A stretch of DNA of 64,000 bases from Octopus vulgaris (taxonomy: Eukaryota): NCBI GenBank assembly GCA_951406725.2, contig OX597834.1:35216001-35280000 (forward strand), written 5' to 3'. Positions within the stretch are counted from its first letter, which is position 1. Each line of letters begins with the position of its first letter. A program made the translations under genes and the position numbers. The notes under the pieces were generated by a model. That model worked only from the letters and a program-made list of their open reading frames with translations. It was not told where the DNA came from and did no database searches. Of the stretch, positions 8,209-21,978 are shown one piece after another.

Positions 8209-9337
8209 GTAAAGTAATCTTTGTTTCTTTCATCATTTAACATCCGCTTTTCCAGCTGGTACGGTCAAGGCTTGCACCAGGCTTTACTGTTTATTCTGGA
8301 TTGGTTTCTATGGTTACATGCCCTTCCTAATGTCAATCATTTTACGGAATGTGCTGGGCGATTTTATGCAACGCCAGCATCAATTCTGCTGTGGTGGACA
8401 TGTCTTAGTACAGCAAAGCCACCAGATATCTCAGCCTTTTGTTGTCTCCTTCACAAGGCTCATCCAGTATTTATTATATTCCATTGTTACCTTGGCTTGA
8501 AATAGAAAAGGCCGACCAAAGCCTCGTGAATGGATTTACTGTACATATTTTCGGATGGATCGCATTATAATTTGGGGAGTTACATTATACTTAAGGTTTG
8601 CAATTACCAAAATTTTAAAACTGAAAAGCCCAGGCCCAGAGTACGCGCCCGCCGTCTACTTCAGACGTCCAGTGGATAGGTTGCACCACTAATCTTTATC
8701 GAAATACAATAAGTGGAAGGCATATATTTTAAATAAGAGCCAAGCCTCCCATTGTTTGTCACTTCCTAAAGAATCGGGCATGATACGCCTTAACAATTAA
8801 CGTTTGTCATTTTTCTAAGCAATTATTACTGTTTGTTCAATCATCAAAATTCCGGCCAGCACAGTAAACAAATATACTTCCCTGAGGATAATCTTAACAC
8901 TAAGAATATCTCTAGAGTTGTCTCCCCTACTTGCCAACTATTTATTAACTTAGTGACGTCGTTTCCGAGTCAGCCTTAAAAGATCCTAACCGTCAGCGGA
9001 TGTAAAGATGAAACGTCTTTAATGGAGATAAAGACTACGGCATCAAGGCAAAATGTAAAGAAAACTAGTGTAATCTGAGTGAATGCATGCATCCTCGTTT
9101 AACGTCCGCTTTCAATGTTGGCATGGGTTGGACGGTTTGACTGAAGGCTGCACCAGGCTCCAATCTGATCTGGTAGAGTTTCTGCAACTGGATGCCCTTC
9201 CTAACGCTAGCCACTCCAAGTGTAGTGGGTGGTTTTTATGCCAGTTAGGCGGCAGTGGTGCTTTTTACGTGTCACCGGCAGCACTGGCAACGACCACACA
9301 ATATTAAAATTTTAAAAAATCACCTCTTCCTTTGCAG

Positions 9338-9451: not shown

Positions 9452-10458
9452 GTAAGTGATAATTTCTTTTATATTCTAAACCTTTTCTTCTTTTTTCACA
9501 CCACTTAGAAGTTCTTAAAAATAGAAGCCCTTTTCATAAAGTGTAAGGAAAGAAATCCATTAATTTCTTATATAATTGTCTACAATGCAGAAAAAAAAAA
9601 AAAGTGAAATAGTGCAACATCTTACAAACATTTTCCATCTAATTAACTCTTCTCTGTCACCCCAAATTTGTAGCCTGGTAAGAAAGTAGTGTGTTCATTT
9701 GACCTTTTCCATCCATTAGCATTCTGAAACCTTGTTACGGTTATCTCTCCAAATGTTCTATACAAATTATAGCCAGCACATGTATCTGAGATATCAGATG
9801 AAAAAAATGGATAATGGGCATGTATGTCATATTGTGGGAGCTTTTGCTCCTTCATCAGCAACCACCTAACCCCTAAAGCACCCACAAACACATTCACTAT
9901 TGTGGCAACTTGTTATTTAAACTACTTAAACAGTTTCCAGCTTCAAAAGCTGACGAACCAAACTTCAAGAGACCCATGCTTCACAACCACATTGTTTCAG
10001 GTTCAATCACATTGCATAGCACCTTGGGCAAGGCCCAACTTGACCAAAGGAAAATTGTGTGCTAGTTGTAAATGAGAGTCACTGTCATACAAGCAGAGTC
10101 TCTCTGGCAAGAAGAGCATCTGGTAGAAAATCTGCCTCAATAAACTTCGTCTGACTTGTGCAAACACACAAGGGTAGAATAGACAGTGTTGATGATGTCA
10201 TTGCCGAGGTTTTGATCCACATCAACAAGCCAAGACGCTTCTGAATTATAGGACCTAACATAAGCAACATTTCATTGAAGCAGTTTATATGGCAGAAACA
10301 GGGATCAAATAGCAGGTGTTATATTAAGTTTCATGCTGCCTGTAGGATTTTAATATCATTTGATCCGTTTTTGCCATATAAACTGCTTCAATGAAATGTT
10401 GCTTATGTTATCCTGTTTATTTCCAACCCATATAAATCACTTCTCTTTTACTTCACAG

Positions 10459-11408: not shown

Positions 11409-11429
11409 TTAAAACTGAATCATCTGGCC
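11409..11429 (-). CDS. RPL36A: 60S ribosomal protein L36a (eL42/L44) exon 5
   Basis: minus strand tttcatttcag|GGC CAG ATG ATT CAG TTT TAA = GQMIQF*, the canonical eL42 C-terminus; AATAAA follows at 11390-11395. Confidence 0.9.
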   Translation of the reverse strand, partial: GQMIQF

Positions 11430-12101
11430 CTGAAATGAAAGAGAAAAATGCTTTCAGTAAAAAGAAATATATACACATGTACATCGCAAATATATACACA
11501 CAAAGTTAGACATTAAAACCAACTGACTAGTTTCTCTCATGCTTATTCTCAGGATTGTAATTGCCCACAGCTGAAAGCTCACAAGTTTTTGAGAACAGCC
11601 TAATCATAATTTGTTATACACAGAAAGAGATGCAAATGTAACTGAAGCCAATAAGATTTATCTACTGTTTAGCCCTGGGCAGCAATGCAACAGCACTCAA
11701 TCCATAGCAGTAGCTCCCGCTTTTTTGTTGTTGTCGAGGGACCCCTTTGATTCCTGTTCTATTCTCCTGGAACTCCATAGCCATTCGATGTACATAAAAT
11801 AAGACAACCAGTGTGTCTATGTATGCCTTATGATGCTGAAGCAGGTTGGATGGGGTGACATTGCTCCACAGACACAGCAGTCTGTCACATGAAGGAAAAA
11901 CAGAAGAGCTTCTCCTGCCACACTAATCATGGGGGATAAAATAACTTGGAAACCAAAGCGTATTCTCTTATTCAACAGACATGATGTAAAAAAAACCTAA
12001 TCTATTTCTCTAAACACCAAAACTTCAAATATCTCTGGTTGAAGAAAAAACATGTAACAGATGACAGCAAGCCACCAGAGAAATACAACCCAAAGGAAAA
12101 G

Positions 12102-12290
12102 GTATGTAGCAGGTGAGTGCGAGACACCAGTCATCCAACATTAAGAAAGAGGTTGCACTGGGTCCATACGTCTTAATCCTGACAGTTTAATCTCCTTCCC
12201 TGGGTACAATCACAACTGACACGGTCAACTGACCAATGCAAAAACACTGGTCATAATGACTACAACTGGACACTGATGTACAGGAAGGTA
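12102..12290 (-). ncRNA. box H/ACA snoRNA copy A1 (SNORA81/HBI-61-like)
   Basis: Sense to RPL36A: long 5' hairpin CCTTCCTG...CAGGGAAGG, H box AGATTA, 3' hairpin CAGG...CCTG with loop CCTCTTTCTTAATG, ACA 3 nt from the end. Confidence 0.8.
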
Positions 12291-12492
12291 TTTCACATTA
12301 CACAAAAGCAGTTTTAGCAATTTTAAATAAACATATATAAAAGTGACAAAAATAATTGTACAAATTGATTTTACAGACCATCTCATAGTCTTTTAGCAAA
12401 AAACAAATACTGGCTTACGTTAGAGAGAGAGAGAGACCAGTGAAGTAAACTGCAAGAGATTTGAATACAATTTCCTATCCAACAGTTGAAAT

Positions 12493-12661
12493 TCATGTAT
12501 CAGGCAACAGTGAGACACCAGGCAACTTAGCGACTGCACTGGGTCAAGTCAATCCTGATTGTTAATGTCCCTCCCTTTGTTTAATCCCAACTGACAGTCA
12601 ATGGCCAGTGTGTGTATACATACACACTGAACACAATGACTACAGTCAGACATAGAAGGTA
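12493..12661 (-). ncRNA. diverged H/ACA paralog, subtype B1
   Basis: Alignable to the A copies; keeps H box ACATTA and terminal ACA but lacks the CTCTTTCTTAAT loop. Confidence 0.5.
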
Positions 12662-13007
12662 TATATAAATTATACACAAACACAAATCTAAACCGAGAAG
12701 ACACAGGCTTCCATGCCAATGGACAGAATGGAATTTGTTGAATAAAATTAGAGCAACAATGAAAACGTCAGCATCTCTATCTTAGCATGAATAAACTCAA
12801 TTTACTGAAACTATAGCTAAGTATGAGGTTATTTAAACACGAAAGTATAAATGTAAGGCTACAATACCAAACTGCGAGTATTACAACTTGCAGTCCTAAA
12901 TATGTTAAACACAAGTAAGTTTATCAGCTTCACTGAAGACATTACACCAAGTCCTATAAAGTGCTTCTACTTATAAAATAGTACACCAATATGACCAAAA
13001 TGAAAAG

Positions 13008-13196
13008 CTATGTAGCAGGTGAGTGCGAGACACCAGTCACTCAACATTAAGAAAGAGGTTGCACTGGGTCCATACGTCTTAATCCTGACAGTTTAATCTT
13101 CTTCCCTGGGTACAATCACAACTGACACGGTCAACTGACCAATGTGTACACACTGGTCATAATGACCACAGCTGGACACTGATGTACAGGAAGGTA
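13008..13196 (-). ncRNA. box H/ACA snoRNA copy A2
   Basis: 189 nt, near-identical to A1; H box AGATTA, ACA box. Confidence 0.8.
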
Positions 13197-13895
13197 TTAG
13201 CACATTAGCTAACTCACCATACACGTAGGACTCAGGTACTGAGAAAGAAACCCTTGGTTGAAATGGAAATTTTGCCTAAGTACAGAAGGGGTAACCTTTT
13301 GGCATTTAAGCCAACCAAAACTTTCTACTGGCCTCTCACACGTACCTTACATCATACTAAAGATAAACAATCAAAATCTCAAAGCGATGAGATAATGCAT
13401 GGCTAATTCAAAACAATACACAAACGTATTTCACAGAATAATCTGAATGCTGAAGGGTTGAATATGAAGTCAACCAAGTTTATTTCATTAACACCACAAA
13501 CTGAATAATCCCGCATTGGAAAGTGCTACATCAAGGGAACAATGGTTGTCTAATTAAGGAACTCAGCTCATAAACCTTTGGAATTCAAATGACCCTACCA
13601 AATTTACAATCACATTGTTTTGAATCATGCACCATCTCCTAGCTTCAGTATCTCTATGCAATATTACAGGGCAAGTATGAAAGGCAGGATCTGGTTAGTT
13701 TAAATGCCAAAAGGTCAAGCAAAATCATATTTATAAGGCATGTGAAATATGTTCTCTTATTCAACAGACATGATGTAAAAAACCCAATCTATTTCTCTAA
13801 CCACCAAAACTCCATGTCTCTTGCTGAAGAAAAACATGTAACAGATGACAACAAGCCACCAGTATCTACCAGAGCAATACAACCCAAATGAAGAG

Positions 13896-14084
13896 CTATG
13901 TAGCAGGTGAGTGCGAGACACCAGTCACTCAACATTAAGAAAGAGGTTGCACTGGGTCCATTCGTCTTAATCCTGACAGTTTAATCTCCTTCCCTGAGTA
14001 CAATCACAACTGACACGGTCAACTGACCAATGCAAAAACACTGGACATAATGACTACAGCTGGACACTGATGTACAGGAAGGTA
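13896..14084 (-). ncRNA. box H/ACA snoRNA copy A3
   Basis: 189 nt, near-identical to A1; its flank 13750-13895 duplicates 11960-12101. Confidence 0.8.
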
Positions 14085-14439
14085 TTTTCAAATATTAAAC
14101 TTTATTATTATTATTATTATTATTATACACTGACACACACACAAACCACCACATTGCTTTTTAATCAAACCAATGTAAAAAAAAACATTCAGGAACATAA
14201 TTAAAACAGACTTGATTCATGAAGTAAACTAGAAGAGATTTGAATACAATACTTCAGCCAACAACGGGAGACCAACCATTGTACCTAACGGCAGTTTTTG
14301 GTCTAGCCTAAACCACAAATCAAACGTTTCCATATCAATTACTCCAAATTACCCTGGCTAATTTAAAACCAAAATTAACACAAAGGCTGCATATTTGAAT
14401 AGAAATATAGCAACATAAAGGCTAATATCTCTCCTTTTA

Positions 14440-14657
14440 TACAATTACAATCACCATAGTCAATGACCAATATATATATATGCTGTAGAAACACTGCCAG
14501 ATCAGACTGGGCCTGGTGCAGCCTTCTGGCTTCCCAGACCCCAGTTGAACCGTCCAACCCATGCTAGCATGGAAAGCAGACGTTAAACCATGATGATAAT
14601 ATATATATACACACACACATTGGTCACAATTGCAGAAAGAAGCACACAAGAAAGTAT
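14440..14657 (-). pseudogene. decayed subtype-B snoRNA copy (B2) interrupted by a SINE fragment
   Basis: tgaccaatatatatata[SINE 3' end ~14483-14597]atatatatacacacacacattggtca: the 5'-hairpin apex is split by an insertion; the B-type flank GAAGTAAACT...TTTGAATACA is at 14221-14248. Confidence 0.5.
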
Positions 14658-16181
14658 ACAAACTATACATAATATTAACAAAGTATAAACCTAGTTTGAG
14701 GAGATAATTAGGTTTCCAGACCAAGCTTGGCATAAATATAGCATTTTAAACCTAAAACAAAGAGCTTATTGCTAAATGAAAAGAAACTAGGGCAGCAAGA
14801 GATTACTTATGCTTTTCCCTGCCACTAACCAACTCAGAAACTAATGGCTTATACACAAAACCATATTTTAACAAGGTTATCAACAGAAGTCCTACAACAC
14901 CAGAGATAACATGTGGCTTCACTAAGTAACTGCTTATCTTTGGTGTAAAAATTCTCCATTTTCCAAATGTTCCCTCTCCACATAATAATATATTTTCTGT
15001 AATTTTACAAACCAGGCATCGGTTTCACATTCAGACACCAGAATCCCAGAAGCAAATGAAAACTGCAACTGAACCCTGACAACGATAACAATCCCTCTTT
15101 CTAAGATGAAGTTTTAGAAAGAAAAGAAACTTAATGTGTAAAAGATTAGATTACCAAGGGAAAATCCCACCCCAGAATTACCTCAACTAGGAAACAAAGA
15201 AAAAGCAATGAAAGATGGGTGTGAGCAGAGAAACCAACCAGTCTAAATGATGTTTAGTCACGTTCCACAACAGTTGCCCCACCCAGCAAGGGCTCAATTC
15301 TCAGCCAACTTCACAGAGGAAATCAAATTCCTCGCAAAAAAAAAACCATCGATGCTGAATGAAACATTCTATTAAAAGAGATGTTGATGCGGGGAGAGGA
15401 GAGAGAAAAGGAAGAGCACAGATGAGCCTTTAGGTGACCCCCATTACTCTAGTATAAATAGGATACATTTTGAATGTCAGTATATGACATATGAAGCCCA
15501 ACAGATTTCTGGCAATATATGCCAAGTAAACCGAGAACATTACAATTTATGAGGCATGTATTGGGCAATACTGTGGTACGATTTAACCGTGTTACAGTAA
15601 TTGTTAACAGAAAAGATCAGCAGTTGGATTAGCTTTACTTTTGCTATTTCATGCTTGCATGGGTTAGATGAATGTGCTACTGGGGCACTGTTTTATAACG
15701 AAATTCCTTTCCTGCTGCAAGCTGCCACACATTCAAGTAAAGGAACTCATATCCCACATGGCTTTGAAGCAGATGATTTGTTCACAAGAGATATAAATGA
15801 ATTTATAAGAAAAAAGAAGATTGCATACACAGAAGCAAAATTGATTTTTTGTTTTCAATACCCTGACCCCAACAGCTACATGGTGTAGATTAGGTGAAAT
15901 GGAGGATGTTACATCAGGTAACAAGCGATGAGCTGCAGAACCCATGCTGAAGCCGATATCAGAGCTTAGTGTAACCCTGCGGCTTGCCAAACTGTCCAAC
16001 CCATGCAAGCATGGAAAATGGGTACTGTAAGTGATAATTATTGTATTGTGAACCCCATTTTTTAAATATATACCAAGCTTTAGGGACTGATATGTACTAC
16101 AATCACCTGCAGTTCCAAATATAGTAACAAATGCCTACTCATATTATATACCTACAACAGCAAGTCAACCCAAAAGGAAAG

Positions 16182-16328
16182 ACATGTAGCAGATGAGTGT
16201 GAGACACCTGCCATTCAACATTAAGAAAGAGGTCCATACGCCCAAATCCTAACAGTTTAATCTCCTTCTCTAGGTACAATCACAACTGACCAATGCATAC
16301 ACACTGGCCACTGATGTACAGGAAGGTA
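16182..16328 (-). pseudogene. internally deleted H/ACA copy A4
   Basis: Same ends and boxes as the A copies, with three deletions between short direct repeats (GGT, CAACTGAC, CTGG). Confidence 0.65.
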
Positions 16329-16480
16329 TATTCCCCATTAAATAAATTCCTCAGCCCAACCAGACCGTCTTTAAGCCAAATCAATGTAAAAATATTGACT
16401 TCTTACATTAACCAGAGATGTAGATTAGTGAAATAAACTAGAAGTGATTTGAATACAGTTTCCACATTCAACTGCTGAAA

Positions 16481-16653
16481 TAATGTAGCAGGCAACAATA
16501 AGATGCCAGTTAATGTAGTGACCGTACTGGGTCTGGTCAATCCTAAGTGTTAATGTCCCTCCATGATCACAACTGACACAATCAATGGCCAGTGTATATA
16601 CACATACACTGGACACACCAACTACAGCCAGACAAAGAATGCACAGGAAGGTA
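16481..16653 (-). ncRNA. diverged H/ACA paralog, subtype B3
   Basis: 5' CCTTCCTG, H box ACATTA, CCTGCT-ACA end; lacks the conserved loop; shares flank with B1. Confidence 0.5.
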
Positions 16654-17355
16654 TATAAACTATATGAGAGCAAATATTAATAAATCAAATCTTAATGAGG
16701 TTTTAAGTTTTCAATTCAATCCTGACACAAAAATTTGGCTAATCAAAAAAAGAGTTCATTGCTAAATGAAATCAGAGCAACATTTCTATGTTAACATCAA
16801 TAAACTTAATTTACTAAAATAAAAGTTAATTAAATAGGTGTGTATAAATTAAGTGAAGAGCTGCATTTAAGAAATTGCACAATGCCCATTGAATGCTCCT
16901 CAGGCTTTATATGCCATCAGACCAACACAACACAAGCTGGAAGACCTCAATGGTAATGGTAGTAAGACAGCAGTTAGTCGACAATGAGAAGGCATTGACC
17001 CTTTAGCATTCAGATTACTGTCAAACAAAGCTTATTTATTCAGTTTTAAATGATCTCATAGCTTTGAAATTTCAACAACATAATTACTTTTAGAATGATA
17101 TAGTAGTGTAGGTTTGAGAGGTCAGACCTGGCTTGTCTGAACAGAAAACAGAACAATTGGGTCAGATACGACCAAGTTAAATGGGAAAGGATTAAGTTTC
17201 CATACTAAAACCAAAACGAGTTGTTGCTAAATGAAATCAAAACAAAGAAAATTTCCTGAAACTATGACTCTACATATAAATATATTTAAGAGAAGAATTT
17301 CTTTGATGAGATTACACCAAATTTCGTGTTCTCACATCAATATGAACAAGCTGGA

Positions 17356-17541
17356 AGGTGTTTCAGGTGAGTGCGAGACACCAGTCATTCAACATTAAGA
17401 AAGAGGTTGCACTGGGTCCATACGTCTTAATCCTGAGTTTATTTCCTTCCCTGAGTACAATCACAACTGACACGGTCAACTGACCAATGCATACACACTG
17501 GACATAATGACTACAGCTGGACACTGATGTACAGGAAGGTA
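17356..17541 (-). ncRNA. box H/ACA snoRNA copy A5
   Basis: 186 nt; H box AAATAA (ANANNA), CCTG-AA-ACA end, conserved loop. Confidence 0.78.
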
Positions 17542-18251
17542 TTATTGCTATTACTGCATGATACAAAATATAAACAAGAAATGCAATCAGTCACTTAAAC
17601 AGAAACTAACCACACACAAGTGACATAAAAACACATTCTACCAATTGACTAACACCTTTCCTTATGGAACATTCAAAACAAACCTTATTAGTGAGAGAAA
17701 TAACACAACATTACCATCCGCAGTATCGTCAATAAAATAAGATCTACTTCCATTGTCAACACTGACCGATAATAACTAGTGAGGGTTGCTTACAATAAGG
17801 AACAATATGAAAACCATGGTACTATTATAGTATAGCTGATCAATGCCATCTCAGGACAGCAAGCGACTTTTTGATTAGCAAAATACAACACTGATGATGA
17901 CCACCACCATTGAAGACCAGACTGTAAAACTAACAAAACCACAACGTATTTCTTAGTAAGATGAAGGATATAGGGGTTAAAATAATTTTGTAATGCTACT
18001 GATAAGACTATGAAATCCCTCTACCCATCCTGCCTTACCTGAACAAACACACAATATTTCCCGATTGCAGTTTAACAAGATCACACAATGGACACCAGGG
18101 CTAGACATTCTCTGACCTGAGCTGGTCAGTTCTTAACTGGAACCGCATTACTGGTTCCATCATGATACTGCTCAAGGAACTGCAGTCACTACCCAAATGT
18201 TACATTTATTTTACAAAGATATTGAACACCAATCATCAAATAGAACAATCG

Positions 18252-18440
18252 AATTGTAGCAGGTGAATGCGAGACACCAGTCATTCAACATTAAGAAAGA
18301 GGTCGCACTGGGTCCATTCGTCTTAATCCTGACAGTTTAATTTCCTTCCCTGAGTACAATCACAACTGACACGGTCAACAGACCAATGCAAAAACACTGG
18401 TCATAATGACTACAGCTGGACACTGATGTACAGGAAGGTG
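18252..18440 (-). ncRNA. box H/ACA snoRNA copy A6
   Basis: 189 nt, starts ~65 nt after the GC donor; H box AAATTA, ACA box; flanks unrelated to the other copies. Confidence 0.8.
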
Positions 18441-18505
18441 TTGGTGCAAAAACAAAAAGTCTGTTCAAATGCACAAAAAGTAGGGAGTATAAAAACAGGA
18501 CTTGC

Positions 18506-18622
18506 CTTCTTTTTCTTGTCACCTCCAAGCTCAAAGTGCTTACACCGTTTAATTGGCAGTTGTTTTCTATATTTGCATTCTGTACACTCCATTCGAAGGA
18601 CAATTTTCTTGGTGGTTTTAGC
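18506..18622 (-). CDS. RPL36A: RPL36A exon 4 (GC donor)
   Basis: ctctag|[39 protein letters not shown]|gcaagt; 117 bp, phase 0. Confidence 0.95.
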
Positions 18623-18747
18623 CTAGAGAAACACGAAAAGTAAATTTTCACATCTCAAACACATAACACTGGAAAGGCAGCTAACATAATAATACTTGAG
18701 CCATTCAGAAAGAGGACACATTAAAAAAGGCAGACGAATATACGTAC

Positions 18748-18815
18748 CTTTTTGTGAAAGATAGGTTTGGTCTGACCACCATAACCTCTTTGTTTTCTGT
18801 CGTAACGTCTCTTAC
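18748..18815 (-). CDS. RPL36A: RPL36A exon 3
   Basis: ttgtag|(G)[22 protein letters not shown]|gtacgt; contains the GGQ motif. Confidence 0.97.
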
Positions 18816-19961
18816 CTACAAATAAATAAAACATTTTTAATTCCAATATATAAGACAAAACACAATTACAACCTAGGATCCGATTCTCAGGAAACAGAAT
18901 AATTCTAAAGAGTCCTTCCCTACAAGGATACAGCAGTTGTCTCCCTATTGCCAGAATTTCTCACCCAAATGATAGAAACCACAGGAGTTTCCCGTAATGG
19001 ATCCACCTCCCTAAATGAAGGAATGACTCGCTTCTTAATACTAAAACAGTTAACGAATGAAATGGAATAACAGACATGCAACAACTACGCTTTACAAACT
19101 CGGCATTAAGGTTTTCTAACTCTTATACAAATATCAAAATAATTTTGACAAAAGAAGGGACGCAACTACGTTAATTACAAATTATTGGATATACAAAAGG
19201 GGGCACGGTTTAGAAAGAGCAGAGAAAAGGCGAGACATTCAGGTCTTGCTTCTAAGATTATTTACTAGAAAAAAAAAAAAATTAATATATCAATGAGCTT
19301 TGGAAGGATAGTGAATTCATAAGACACATTGGCGACAAACAGGTGCTAGGTTCAAAGCAACATGTAGGTTGTCGAATGAAACCCCTTCCTCCTGCTTCGA
19401 TTTAACTACGTATTACCCCTTAACAAAATTGTTAAATACAGAATCCCTAAGACCGCTCTTATTAAGGACCCTTAACAGAATGAGCAGGGAACAGGATTCA
19501 TATCATCAATATAAACAAAAAGAGAACTATCCTACTTCGACCATTTTTACTTAACATTCCTCATGATTTCTGTATTTTATTTGTAAATTTAACCACGTGG
19601 ATGCATATAAGCACATACTGCAGCAGTTGGCTAATCATTTCAGCTGAGATAAACACGATCGTCAGTCGAAGTAAATCGATTATATAGACTATGAACATTA
19701 AATACAGTGGTGTTTTAGAATAACTCTCCCTTGAAATTACATAAAGGTTAGCCCTTGCCATTTTTTTTTAAAAAGTACTCATGAATTTCATACAACAAAG
19801 AATTGTGATTTTGAAACATAATTTCAAAATCACCCTCAAAAGCATTTTATGCCACTCCCTTCACCCATTCCAGTACCAGAAACACAGGCAACGAGCAATA
19901 GATACATCGAAACTGTCCAAAATACTGAGAGTTGCTAAAGGATCTCAGGAAGTTTCTCATA

Positions 19962-20216
19962 CCATGTGAATGGCAGCAAGCATCAAAACTGTTGTTCAAG
20001 CCAAACCAACAGCAACCTTTACACTTGCACCACAACTCATGCGAATATCTACCGCAAGTCCAGTTCTTGTGTCGCAGTGTGCCTTAATGCCAACCCTAAC
20101 CCTTGAGCAACACCAACACAATGCAAGCTCCTTGGAGGGCCTATGCCAGACAGGTCAAAGCCTGACTAATACGGTCATCCCCTTCCCAGAAGTAAAAATC
20201 AGTTTGCATAGGGCCA
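19962..20216 (-). ncRNA. candidate structured intronic RNA ending in ACA (H/ACA-like, unassigned)
   Basis: Minus-strand stems GGCCCTATGC/GCATAGGCC, ACTGCGA/TTGCGGT, GCAAGTGT/ATGCTTGC, GCTGTTG/CAACAGT, then ACA+3 nt; G-U pairs favour the minus strand; no perfect ANANNA found. Confidence 0.35.
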
Positions 20217-20229
20217 ACAACCCCACAAA

Positions 20230-20370
20230 GAGAATAGTAAAGTTACAGGAACATCAGTGACAATCCAAAACCAAGGGCTGGGAGAGGAAGACCTTCGGGG
20301 ACAGCTCAGAGCTGAGAACAGTGGAGAAAAGTCGCCGATGGCCCACAGTCCATAGGGAATGAAAGGCTTA
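20230..20370 (+). mobile_element. RTE-type LINE 3' end fragment in RPL36A intron 2
   Basis: GGGAGAGGAAGACCT (GRGRP) and TGGAGAAAAGTCGCCGATGGC (WRKVADG) near a tail-like end. Confidence 0.5.
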
Positions 20371-20487
20371 ATACCTACCCATGGCCATGTACTTATGATT
20401 ATAACACTACGTCACTTCTTCGTGGATCATTAGATGCATTGTGCAGAGATAACAGTAAAAATACAAATACAACTTTAGGGGCCTTAC

Positions 20488-20599
20488 CTTGGGCACATAG
20501 TGAGGCTTTACCAGCCTTGTACTGTGACACCTTGTGAAGAGTATGTTTCCTGCATTTTCTACCTTTGCAGTAGGTCCGCCGGGTTTTGGGGACGTTCAC
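20488..20599 (-). CDS. RPL36A: RPL36A exon 2
   Basis: tcacag|[38 protein letters not shown]|gtaagg. Confidence 0.97.
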
Positions 20600-21975
20600 C
20601 TGTGAGACAAAATATAATTATAAAATTTAGGGAACAAATCTTAACAGAAACTAGATAAGTTGAGTTTGATGTGATAGTGATGGATACATAACGAAAATTA
20701 AAGCCTTAAGCTTCCCTGGTAAATTACGGGTGACTTAATTCATTCAACCTCGAACAGCCAATAGTCTTTAAAACAAGGGACAGTTGACTGCTAAAAATAA
20801 CAGCCAGATATCCCTGCAATGATGTCATTCCTGATATACATAAAACATGGTCGTGGGTGGAATACCTTTAACCCAGAGTCGTAGGTCTCCTCTGCTCAAT
20901 AAGGACAAACCCGAGCCTAAACATCAACACTTGAATTCGAGTACATTATACCTCATTTGTTCCTCTTTCAATAAATTTTCACTTTTTTAAAAAACTGCCG
21001 ACTAAACAAACCATTGCTCGTTCGAATTTTAGATGAGTTATCCCGAAACTGCAGGAGACCTCTTGAATGTTGATTTTCAGGTAGTACTTAAATGCAGGTG
21101 TTACGTACAAAAGCATTCTAAATGTACGCTGTGCAGACGTGTAACGACACCTTAAACCCTAAAAACTAACCCTACCCTACACATCGTTACGTAGAAGCTT
21201 CGGGACCTCCGTGTTCAAGTAGTGGGGCTCCTCAATGGTCCTTAACAGCATTTCCATCCACTAACTTATTACTTTCAAAGTTTATGCTAGATCAATCAAA
21301 TGTATATGTGTGTGTATATTGAAGGACGGTTGTTATAATTGAGAAATGGAATCAATAGATGAAGTGGAGGGTCTTCACCAGAAACCAGATCTCCTGAAAC
21401 ATTACAAACTTTTAAATTTAAAAAAGTATATACCTACCTATACATATATATAATACTACCTATATATATATAATACTACCTATATATGTTTATATGCATA
21501 CAAAAGCTTGTTTAATGCTGATAAACTGTATAAATTCATGGTATTTTAGTATTGATAAATCCAACATATTCAGTAATTTTTATGTAGAAGGCTGACACCA
21601 TGTGATTATAGACATTAAAATATCATCACTAAAAGCTTATTATAAATAATAATAATACACAATAGATAAAACTGGCAAAACTAACGTAACATTAAAAGTA
21701 TATTCTCTAAATTATTTGAAAGATGAGGGGAAAATTTAGAAGAAAAACATATTTAAGCTCTGAACTTGCAACAACTGTACAAGTTTTTAGACTCCGACAT
21801 GGAGAAAAATTTTGCTTATAAAACCTTTTAGGCTCAGTTTTAAAATACGTAAGTTTCATAAAATGGAATAAAACAGACCTATATGTGTTAATAAAAAGGT
21901 TTATGGTGAATATATATTGTAAATGATGCAAGATGGTAAGGGATTAATCTGGAAAAATTAGAAACGTGTACTCAC

Positions 21976-21978
21976 CAT
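21976..21978 (-). CDS. RPL36A: RPL36A exon 1 (initiator ATG only)
   Basis: minus strand cctcttccgctaagcattgagaATG|gtgagt; ATG-only first coding exon typical of RP genes; spliced total 106 aa. Confidence 0.9.

What the first reader, a model, noticed from the sequence alone, without database searches (positions are those of the whole stretch)
12102..18440. Array of nine related H/ACA snoRNA units inside one ribosomal-protein intron
Seen: the last RPL36A intron (11430-18505) contains five intact ~186-189-nt copies (12102, 13008, 13896, 17356, 18252), one deleted copy and three diverged copies of one element, all sense to the host. Each intact copy folds as hairpin - ANANNA - hairpin - ACA+3 nt. 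The H box varies only at N positions (AGATTA/AAATAA/AAATTA), most other changes fall in loops or give wobble pairs, and for A5/A6 similarity drops at the predicted RNA ends. Established: vertebrate intronic snoRNAs are normally one per intron because they are trimmed from the debranched lariat; polycistronic intronic clusters are known mainly from Drosophila and plants. Inference: this is a lineage-specific, selected snoRNA amplification that needs a mechanism to separate the copies.
Basis: partly seen in the sequence, partly recalled or inferred. Interest (0 to 1): 0.9.

Follow-up and report, generated by a model that had tools for sequence, protein, structure and literature searches.

The report
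Retargeted SNORA81-like snoRNA array in intron
One intron of a ribosomal-protein gene holds eight recognisable copies and one broken copy of a likely small guide RNA, probably a distant relative of vertebrate SNORA81, which is predicted to modify uridines near the ribosome's catalytic centre instead of the human site; packing several such genes into one intron is known from flies, but how the copies would be cut apart is untested.

Summary
Observation confirmed. The 7.1-kb last intron of RPL36A holds five intact copies (185-188 nt, 91-96% alike, flanks at background), one deleted copy, two diverged copies (type B) and a SINE-broken remnant, all sense. The element was found nowhere else in the 2.8-Gb genome. 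The H box and ACA box sit at canonical places. No covariation was found and no mature RNA could be shown.
New here: (1) The unit aligns end to end with Rfam SNORA81, far below the cut-off, but shares an exact 16-nt loop in register. (2) The human SNORA81 target site is a C in this organism's 28S rRNA. (3) The best-fitting pocket targets cluster within 43 nt beside the 28S P-loop: U3892 (type B, 13 of 13 pairs), U3918 and U3934 (type A). The three-site cluster was matched by 0 of 300 and 0 of 400 shuffles, but the test is post hoc; the two type-A pockets are not significant alone.
Clustered intronic H/ACA genes are known from Drosophila, so the layout is not new. The release mechanism is inferred, and a sno-lncRNA product is not excluded.

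The parts
11409..21978 (-). RPL36A/eL42 host gene, coding exons 21978-21976, 20599-20488, 18815-18748, 18622-18506, 11429-11409
   Evidence: open 106-aa frame with splice signals; Pfam PF00935
11430..18505 (-). last intron, 7076 nt, GC-AG
   Evidence: sequence; junction in contigs of 2 of 2 RNA-guessed runs
18252..18439 (-). copy A1, intact, 66 nt behind the donor; H box at 18343, ACA at 18257
17356..17540 (-). copy A2, intact, 3-nt hinge deletion; H box at 17444, ACA at 17361
16481..16652 (-). copy B3, diverged type B, lacks the conserved loop; predicted guide halves 16540-16535 and 16500-16494 for 28S U3892
16182..16327 (-). copy A4, internally deleted type A, both boxes kept, probably decaying
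14411..14655 (-). copy B5, remnant broken by a SINE-like insertion (about 14490-14600); no recognisable 3' hairpin
13896..14083 (-). copy A6, intact; H box at 13987, ACA at 13901
13008..13195 (-). copy A7, intact; H box at 13099, ACA at 13013
12493..12660 (-). copy B8, diverged type B; predicted guide halves 12552-12547 and 12512-12506 for 28S U3892
12102..12289 (-). copy A9, intact, 672 nt before the acceptor; H box at 12193, ACA at 12107
12138..12153 (-). 16-nt apical loop of the 3' hairpin, identical to the Rfam SNORA81 consensus and invariant in 6 of 6 type-A copies
12116..12172 (-). 3' pocket of A9: guide halves 12172-12165 and 12122-12116, predicted for 28S U3918
12206..12279 (-). 5' pocket of A9: guide halves 12279-12270 and 12209-12206, predicted for 28S U3934 (alternative 18S U1299)

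Best explanation
The intron carries a tandem cluster of likely H/ACA snoRNA genes, probably descended from the SNORA81 lineage, whose copies would be released singly from the spliced intron and are predicted to guide pseudouridylation of uridines beside the P-loop of this organism's 28S rRNA. Steps: (1) Shown: the copies lie sense in one intron that is spliced as a unit. (2) Inferred: they arose by local tandem duplication, including a B+A cassette repeated three times (order A1, A2, B3-A4, B5-A6, A7, B8-A9); selection, probably with gene conversion, kept the units alike while the spacers diverged. (3) Inferred from H/ACA biology: dyskerin/NOP10/NHP2 load on each copy during RPL36A transcription. 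(4) Inferred, untested: after splicing, cuts in the 153-1516-nt spacers open the lariat and exonucleases trim to each protected unit; no shared spacer signal was found. (5) Predicted: type B guides 28S U3892 (my odds about 0.6), the type-A 3' pocket U3918 (about 0.45) and the type-A 5' pocket U3934 (about 0.35; alternative 18S U1299). Positions are on the 4890-nt 28S of locus L017. (6) The loop shared with SNORA81 likely has a separate binding role that does not depend on the target.
For: Boxes and hairpins are in canonical places in 8 of 8 copies. Identity is 91.5-96.3% within units and at background in the flanks. A genome-wide DNA search finds 6 matches for type A and 2 for type B, all in this intron. 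SNORA81 is the only Rfam hit on copy A9 at E<=10, spans model positions 1-179 and starts at the unit's 5' end (for A2). It shares 10 of the first 11 letters and an exact 16-mer ending 36 nt before the 3' end in both; the in-register chance is about 3e-6 over all 4227 families, or 0.08 at any offset. Both B copies pair with 28S U3892 in 13 of 13 positions at distance 14, and their three guide differences are all Watson-Crick/G-U swaps. Read by hand against the Rfam LSU consensus they pair only 10 and 11 of 13, and the site is C there, so the fit is to this lineage's own rRNA. Joint B score reached by 1 of 100, 4 of 300 and 15 of 400 shuffles. Two type-A pockets within 45 nt: 4 of 300 and 2 of 400. 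All three sites: 0 of 300 and 0 of 400, also with a 300-nt window. The U/A-variable guide position faces the single mismatch at U3918. Control: this genome's U17 copies carry a changed guide word that fits the same 18S. Guide shuffling between snoRNA families is documented (PMC6984369, passages).
Against: No mature RNA could be seen; only contigs were available. Rfam scores of 19.9 and 12.3 bits are far below the cut-off of 45 (E about 5), and a genome search with the family found nothing. There is no covariation, and the 3' hairpin is not stabler than shuffles. Single pockets did not beat shuffles in the first fixed scan. Type-A pockets alone are not significant: 3' 34 of 100 and 115 of 400; 5' 10 of 100 and 75 of 400. 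For the 5' pocket 18S U1299 scores one point above U3934. Registers, the scoring scheme and the 45-nt window are mine and were fixed after seeing candidates. The fits contain 3-5 G-U pairs, and the type-A fits also a mismatch. The 5' pocket is mostly closed in the free fold. Predicted guide activities often fail when tested (PMC8522698, passages). Only 18S, 28S, 5.8S, U2 and U6 were scanned (1452 uridines); U1, U4, U5, 5S and tRNAs were not. A relative's copy at the A7 place differs at 7 listed sites in 188 nt, about the rate of its flank, so single copies may be weakly constrained (partial table).
Confidence: 0.58

Rival explanations
1. The copies are real H/ACA RNAs, but the predicted targets are false; they are orphans or act through the conserved loop, for example in binding a protein or chaperoning pre-rRNA.
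For: The loop is unchanged between vertebrates and this animal while both pockets differ. Type-A pockets alone are not significant. The human site is lost. SNORA81 is listed among chromatin-enriched snoRNAs (PMC4696412, passage).
Against: Three best fits cluster in 43 nt, and the type-B fit follows lineage-specific rRNA letters. Type B lacks the loop yet keeps both boxes. The loop pairs with the rDNA unit no better than shuffled loops (-16.3 versus mean -17.3 kcal/mol).
Confidence: 0.2
2. The intron is trimmed only from its ends, as in vertebrates, giving a ~6.3-kb sno-lncRNA capped by A1 and A9 (SLERT-like) with internal H/ACA units as a scaffold.
For: Both outer copies are intact. This is the known outcome of two snoRNAs in one vertebrate intron (PMC11028025 and PMC5054931, passages). 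No common cleavage signal was found in the spacers.
Against: The spacers are unconserved and carry SINE insertions. Internal copies are as conserved as outer ones, and type B is internal only. Lariat-bound snoRNAs do not guide modification (PMC8609340, abstract), which sits badly with guides fitted to the own rRNA.
Confidence: 0.12
3. One or two copies are functional, and the others are pseudogenes kept alike by gene conversion.
For: A4 is deleted, B5 is broken, and A7 breaks a basal pair. A relative's A7 copy carries the letters of the other paralogues.
Against: Identity stops at the RNA ends. Changes avoid stems. B3 and B8 are only 74% alike yet keep boxes and target fit.
Confidence: 0.12
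4. Recursive or nested splicing divides the intron so that each piece holds few snoRNAs.
For: One acceptor-donor junction (CAG|GUAAGG) lies at 18039, between A1 and A2.
Against: Such a site occurs in 288 of 1000 shuffles and four times on the other strand. No other spacer has one, and none was among the joints shown (84 rows not shown).
Confidence: 0.05
5. The unit is a SINE or a snoRNA-derived retroposon.
For: Sharp boundaries between units and flanks.
Against: All matches lie in one intron in one orientation. The five other genomic hits of the loop word are at chance level (13 for the control word) and carry no unit. No A-tails are visible. Flank homology points to tandem duplication.
Confidence: 0.02

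Closest known systems
Vertebrate SNORA81 / HBI-61 (Rfam RF01241; EIF4A2 intron; guides 28S U4636, old number 4606)
   Same: Length about 180-190 nt, 5' end, basal stem of the 5' hairpin, H-box position, hinge, GAC/GUC upper stem and identical 16-nt loop in register.
   Different: The host is RPL36A. There are nine copies in one intron; Xenopus has one listed copy (PMC6984369, supplement row). Both pockets are rewritten, the H96 site is C here, and the score is below the family cut-off.
Drosophila intronic H/ACA clusters (PMC3089462 passages citing Huang et al. 2005, which was not available; PMC13228274 passage)
   Same: Several related H/ACA genes in one intron of a host linked to translation.
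   Different: Probably a mollusc; two subtypes in a repeated cassette; spacers up to 1.5 kb, longer than I recall for fly clusters (recalled, not checked).
Vertebrate sno-lncRNAs (SLERT, SNORD116 region)
   Same: More than one snoRNA per intron, with intact copies at both ends.
   Different: Those have two snoRNAs. Here seven further units lie between, and no long RNA is shown.
Guide retargeting among snoRNA paralogues (Xenopus versus human; PMC6984369, passages)
   Same: Diverged copies acquire new targets, and snoRNAs move between hosts.
   Different: The distance here is vertebrate to invertebrate, and the predicted sites are untested.

Membership tests
Box H/ACA snoRNA | H box ANANNA in a single-stranded hinge | tested here: met
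   8 of 8 copies
Box H/ACA snoRNA | ACA directly behind the 3' hairpin | tested here: met
   8 of 8 copies; identity ends 0-3 nt later
Box H/ACA snoRNA | two hairpins | tested here: inconclusive
   5' hairpin z -3.5 to -5.3; 3' hairpin consistent but not above shuffles; no covariation
Box H/ACA snoRNA | bipartite antisense pocket 14-16 nt from a box that fits a uridine | tested here: inconclusive
   type B p about 0.01-0.04; type A significant only jointly; post hoc
Box H/ACA snoRNA | discrete stable RNA ending 3 nt after ACA, bound by dyskerin | not testable with these tools
   only assembled contigs were available
SNORA81 (RF01241) | Rfam gathering score of 45 bits | tested here: not met
   19.9 and 12.3 bits; none genome-wide
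SNORA81 (RF01241) | conserved sequence blocks in register over the whole model | tested here: met
   model 1-179 aligned, exact 16-mer, 5' end
SNORA81 (RF01241) | guides the H96 uridine (human U4636) | tested here: not met
   own 28S has C there (the register to human rests partly on recall); best fit to H96 scores 14 against a shuffled mean near 23
SNORA81 (RF01241) | EIF4A2 host intron | tested here: not met
   host is RPL36A; the own eIF4A gene was not examined
Intronic snoRNA cluster (Drosophila type) | several snoRNA genes in one spliced intron | tested here: met
Intronic snoRNA cluster (Drosophila type) | release as single mature RNAs | not testable with these tools
   needs small-RNA data
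sno-lncRNA | stable long RNA with snoRNA ends | not testable with these tools
   contigs show neither ends nor levels
scaRNA | CAB box (UGAG) in a terminal loop | tested here: not met
   UGAG occurs in 2 of 5 intact copies, outside the loop; no U2 fit among the top hits
SINE / snoRNA retroposon | dispersed copies in both orientations | tested here: not met

The most novel reading that the evidence does not exclude
An ancient SNORA81-lineage RNA kept a 16-nt loop unchanged from vertebrates to this invertebrate while rewriting both guides. It then expanded into a nine-unit, two-subtype array in one ribosomal-protein intron that installs three lineage-specific pseudouridines around the P-loop of a strongly remodelled ribosome, with the monomers cut out of a 7-kb lariat by an endonucleolytic route that vertebrates do not normally use.
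Probability: 0.3. Interest if true: 0.7.

Novelty: new variant of a known kind. Interest (0 to 1): 0.48.

Why it matters
It would extend clustered intronic H/ACA genes from flies to (probably) molluscs. The internal copies are distinguishable by sequence, which makes it directly testable whether an animal cuts such clusters apart or leaves a sno-lncRNA. It also points to an unexplained loop in SNORA81, a snoRNA now studied in ovarian cancer (10.64898/2026.10.06.757013, passages), that has outlasted its guide sequences and so may carry a second function. Finally, it gives three specific, cheap predictions of rRNA modification. None of this is a new class of system.

Tried and rejected
Rfam at gathering threshold over the window: 0 hits. 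First rRNA motif search in the genome: 0 hits; a shorter one found the rDNA array. Longest antisense scan and a loose pocket scan: nothing convincing. Fixed-pocket single-copy scan: no pocket above all shuffles. Loop pairing with rDNA, U2 or U6: not above shuffles. Spacer hairpins as RNase III signals: present in some spacers, not homologous, several from repeats; inconclusive. Recursive site at 18039: chance level. Expression: no RNA holder listed on record; the contigs cannot show ends or levels. The covariance model could not be run genome-wide, so very diverged copies elsewhere are not excluded; its one hit at E 0.003 in other loci was an (AT)n repeat. SNORA70 as a second test of clustering gave only a sub-threshold hit. 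Huang et al. 2005 could not be read. Earlier scan notes: none for this genome or sequence. Literature listings showed no paper on a cephalopod snoRNA cluster, an invertebrate SNORA81 or an RPL36A-hosted H/ACA array; these were titles and abstract starts only, and database annotations or unseen supplements may hold such records.
Full report
1. Observation. The host is RPL36A on the minus strand: five coding exons give a 106-aa protein with the Pfam Ribosomal_L44 domain. Its last intron runs 18505-11430 and has a GC donor. Contigs of both RNA-guessed runs laid, and of neither of the two other runs, join across it. BLAST, nhmmer and a covariance model built from the copies find eight units in the intron and nothing comparable in the rest of the window (the training copies match by construction). 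In transcript order they are A1, A2, B3, A4, A6, A7, B8 and A9. A ninth, B5, lies between A4 and A6 as a weak remnant: its right half beats all 300 shuffles against two of three copies, its left half does not. A high-copy repeat interrupts it, and one relative's contig lacks most of that insertion.

2. More than chance, and not a mobile element. The five intact copies are 91.5-96.3% identical in all ten pairs. Their flanks are at background, except behind A6 and A9, and the B copies also share some flank. This points to old tandem duplications, including a B+A cassette repeated three times. In the 2.8-Gb genome a DNA search finds six matches to type A and two to type B, all here. The loop word occurs at five other places, against 13 for the control word, and none carries a unit. 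These searches give lower bounds. Contigs of independent runs from this and three close relatives bridge unit-flank borders, so the array is not an assembly artefact.

3. Anatomy. All eight units have a stable 5' hairpin (z -3.5 to -5.3), an ANANNA hinge, a looser 3' hairpin that does not beat shuffles in the intact copies, and ACA at the end. Changes among intact copies fall in 6 of 104 paired and 17 of 81 unpaired columns, and three of the six break a pair. No pair shows a compensatory change, so the fold is supported by energy and box geometry, not by covariation.

4. Ancestry. Rfam has no hit at threshold. At E up to 10, SNORA81 aligns over its whole model to A2 (19.9 bits) and is the only hit on A9 (12.3 bits); the cut-off is 45. 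The alignment starts at the unit's first base, puts the H boxes together, and shares an exact 16-nt apical loop that ends 36 nt before the 3' end in both. My estimate for such a word is 3e-6 in register over all families and 0.08 at any offset. I put descent from the SNORA81 lineage at about 0.8 but do not file it as a member, because score, host and target fail. Human SNORA81 lies in EIF4A2 and guides 28S U4636 in helix 96, a base that is not universally conserved (10.64898/2026.10.06.757013, passages). In this organism's 28S (locus L017) that position reads C (the exact register to human rests partly on recall).

5. Targets. I scanned 1452 uridines of the own 18S, 28S, 5.8S, U2 and U6. Loose scans and single-copy scans gave nothing above shuffles. 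Scoring copies jointly, both B copies fit 28S U3892 with 13 of 13 pairs (3-4 G-U) at distance 14. Their three guide differences are Watson-Crick/wobble swaps. Against the Rfam LSU consensus they would pair 10 and 11 of 13, and the site is C (read by hand). The type-A 3' pocket ranks U3918 first, next to the P-loop, and the 5' pocket ranks 18S U1299 first and 28S U3934 second. Shuffle results: B alone 1 of 100, 4 of 300, 15 of 400; type-A 3' 34 of 100, 115 of 400; type-A 5' 10 of 100, 75 of 400; both type-A pockets within 45 nt 4 of 300, 2 of 400; all three sites 0 of 300, 0 of 400. The sites are Rfam LSU model positions 2608, 2634 and 2650 (counted), around E. coli U2231, U2257 and U2272 (recalled numbering). 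The scoring, registers and window are mine and were set after seeing candidates, so these numbers overstate the case, and such predictions often fail (PMC8522698, passages). As a control that L017 is the working rDNA, the genome's U17 copies carry a changed guide word that fits it.

6. Mechanism. Shown: one spliced intron with sense copies. Inferred: co-transcriptional H/ACA assembly, cuts in the spacers and exonucleolytic trimming, as for yeast polycistrons cut by Rnt1 (PMC10557570, passages); for co-hosted snoRNAs in other species the actors are largely unknown (PMC12508059, passages). I found no shared spacer hairpin and only a chance-level recursive splice site. The vertebrate default would give a sno-lncRNA (PMC11028025, passages and first part of the introduction; PMC5054931, passages). 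I rank it lower because the spacers are unconstrained and the internal-only B type seems fitted to its own target. The available runs cannot decide this.

7. Comparison and novelty. In Drosophila, H/ACA loci are generally clustered in introns (PMC3089462, passages; PMC13228274, passage; the primary paper was not available). The mfl cluster is one-per-intron and is not a precedent (PMC1821038, passages). Reviews treat intronic clusters as a standard class (PMC12205218, passages). In this genome, two U17 copies also lie before the first coding exon of RPLP0 with no strong splice pair between them, so the habit may be wider; a non-coding exon is not excluded. Seven listing searches showed no report of this array or of an invertebrate SNORA81; unseen supplements or databases may hold one. 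Earlier scan notes list intronic tandem arrays in other genomes and are leads only.

8. Verdict. The feature is real and very probably a set of H/ACA snoRNA genes. It is a new variant of known kinds: a known layout, and a known family lineage with a lost target, a conserved unexplained loop and candidate new targets. Interest 0.48.

Noticed in passing
window 18505-18500 (-): The snoRNA-bearing intron uses a GC donor (GCAAGU); a weak donor might slow splicing and give time for RNP loading (speculation).
   Followed up: partly
L043:6115-8141 (G000:C3:154352114-154354140, +): Three SNORA73/U17 copies in RPLP0: two before the first coding exon, apparently in one intron, and one in the next. Their second guide word reads GAGACC and fits the changed own 18S.
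   Followed up: partly
L043:8630-8753 and L044:422-2153: A sub-threshold SNORD22-like hit, and a ~830-nt unit (part of an RPLP0 exon plus intron, each with a weak SNORD59-like hit) repeated three times at 94-98% identity; a real duplication or an assembly artefact.
   Followed up: no
L017 (G000:C20:23971400-23981399): The rDNA repeat of about 18.3 kb has a much expanded, GC-rich 18S (2643 nt) and 28S (4890 nt); further 28S fragments are scattered on many contigs (10 of the other hits inspected).
   Followed up: partly
window about 14490-14600, 15990-16017, 9090-9150: Copies of a very high-copy SINE-like repeat; one has inserted into copy B5 and is mostly absent in one relative's contig.
   Followed up: partly
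window 10256-10410: A near-perfect 44-nt inverted repeat (98%) with a 67-nt gap downstream of RPL36A, MITE-like.
   Followed up: no
window 18039 (-): An acceptor-donor junction (CAG|GUAAGG) between A1 and A2; chance level in shuffles.
   Followed up: yes
G000, many contigs: U2 and U6 snRNA genes are numerous (48 of 48 scored candidates each), with tandem U2 arrays on C3 and C23.
   Followed up: no
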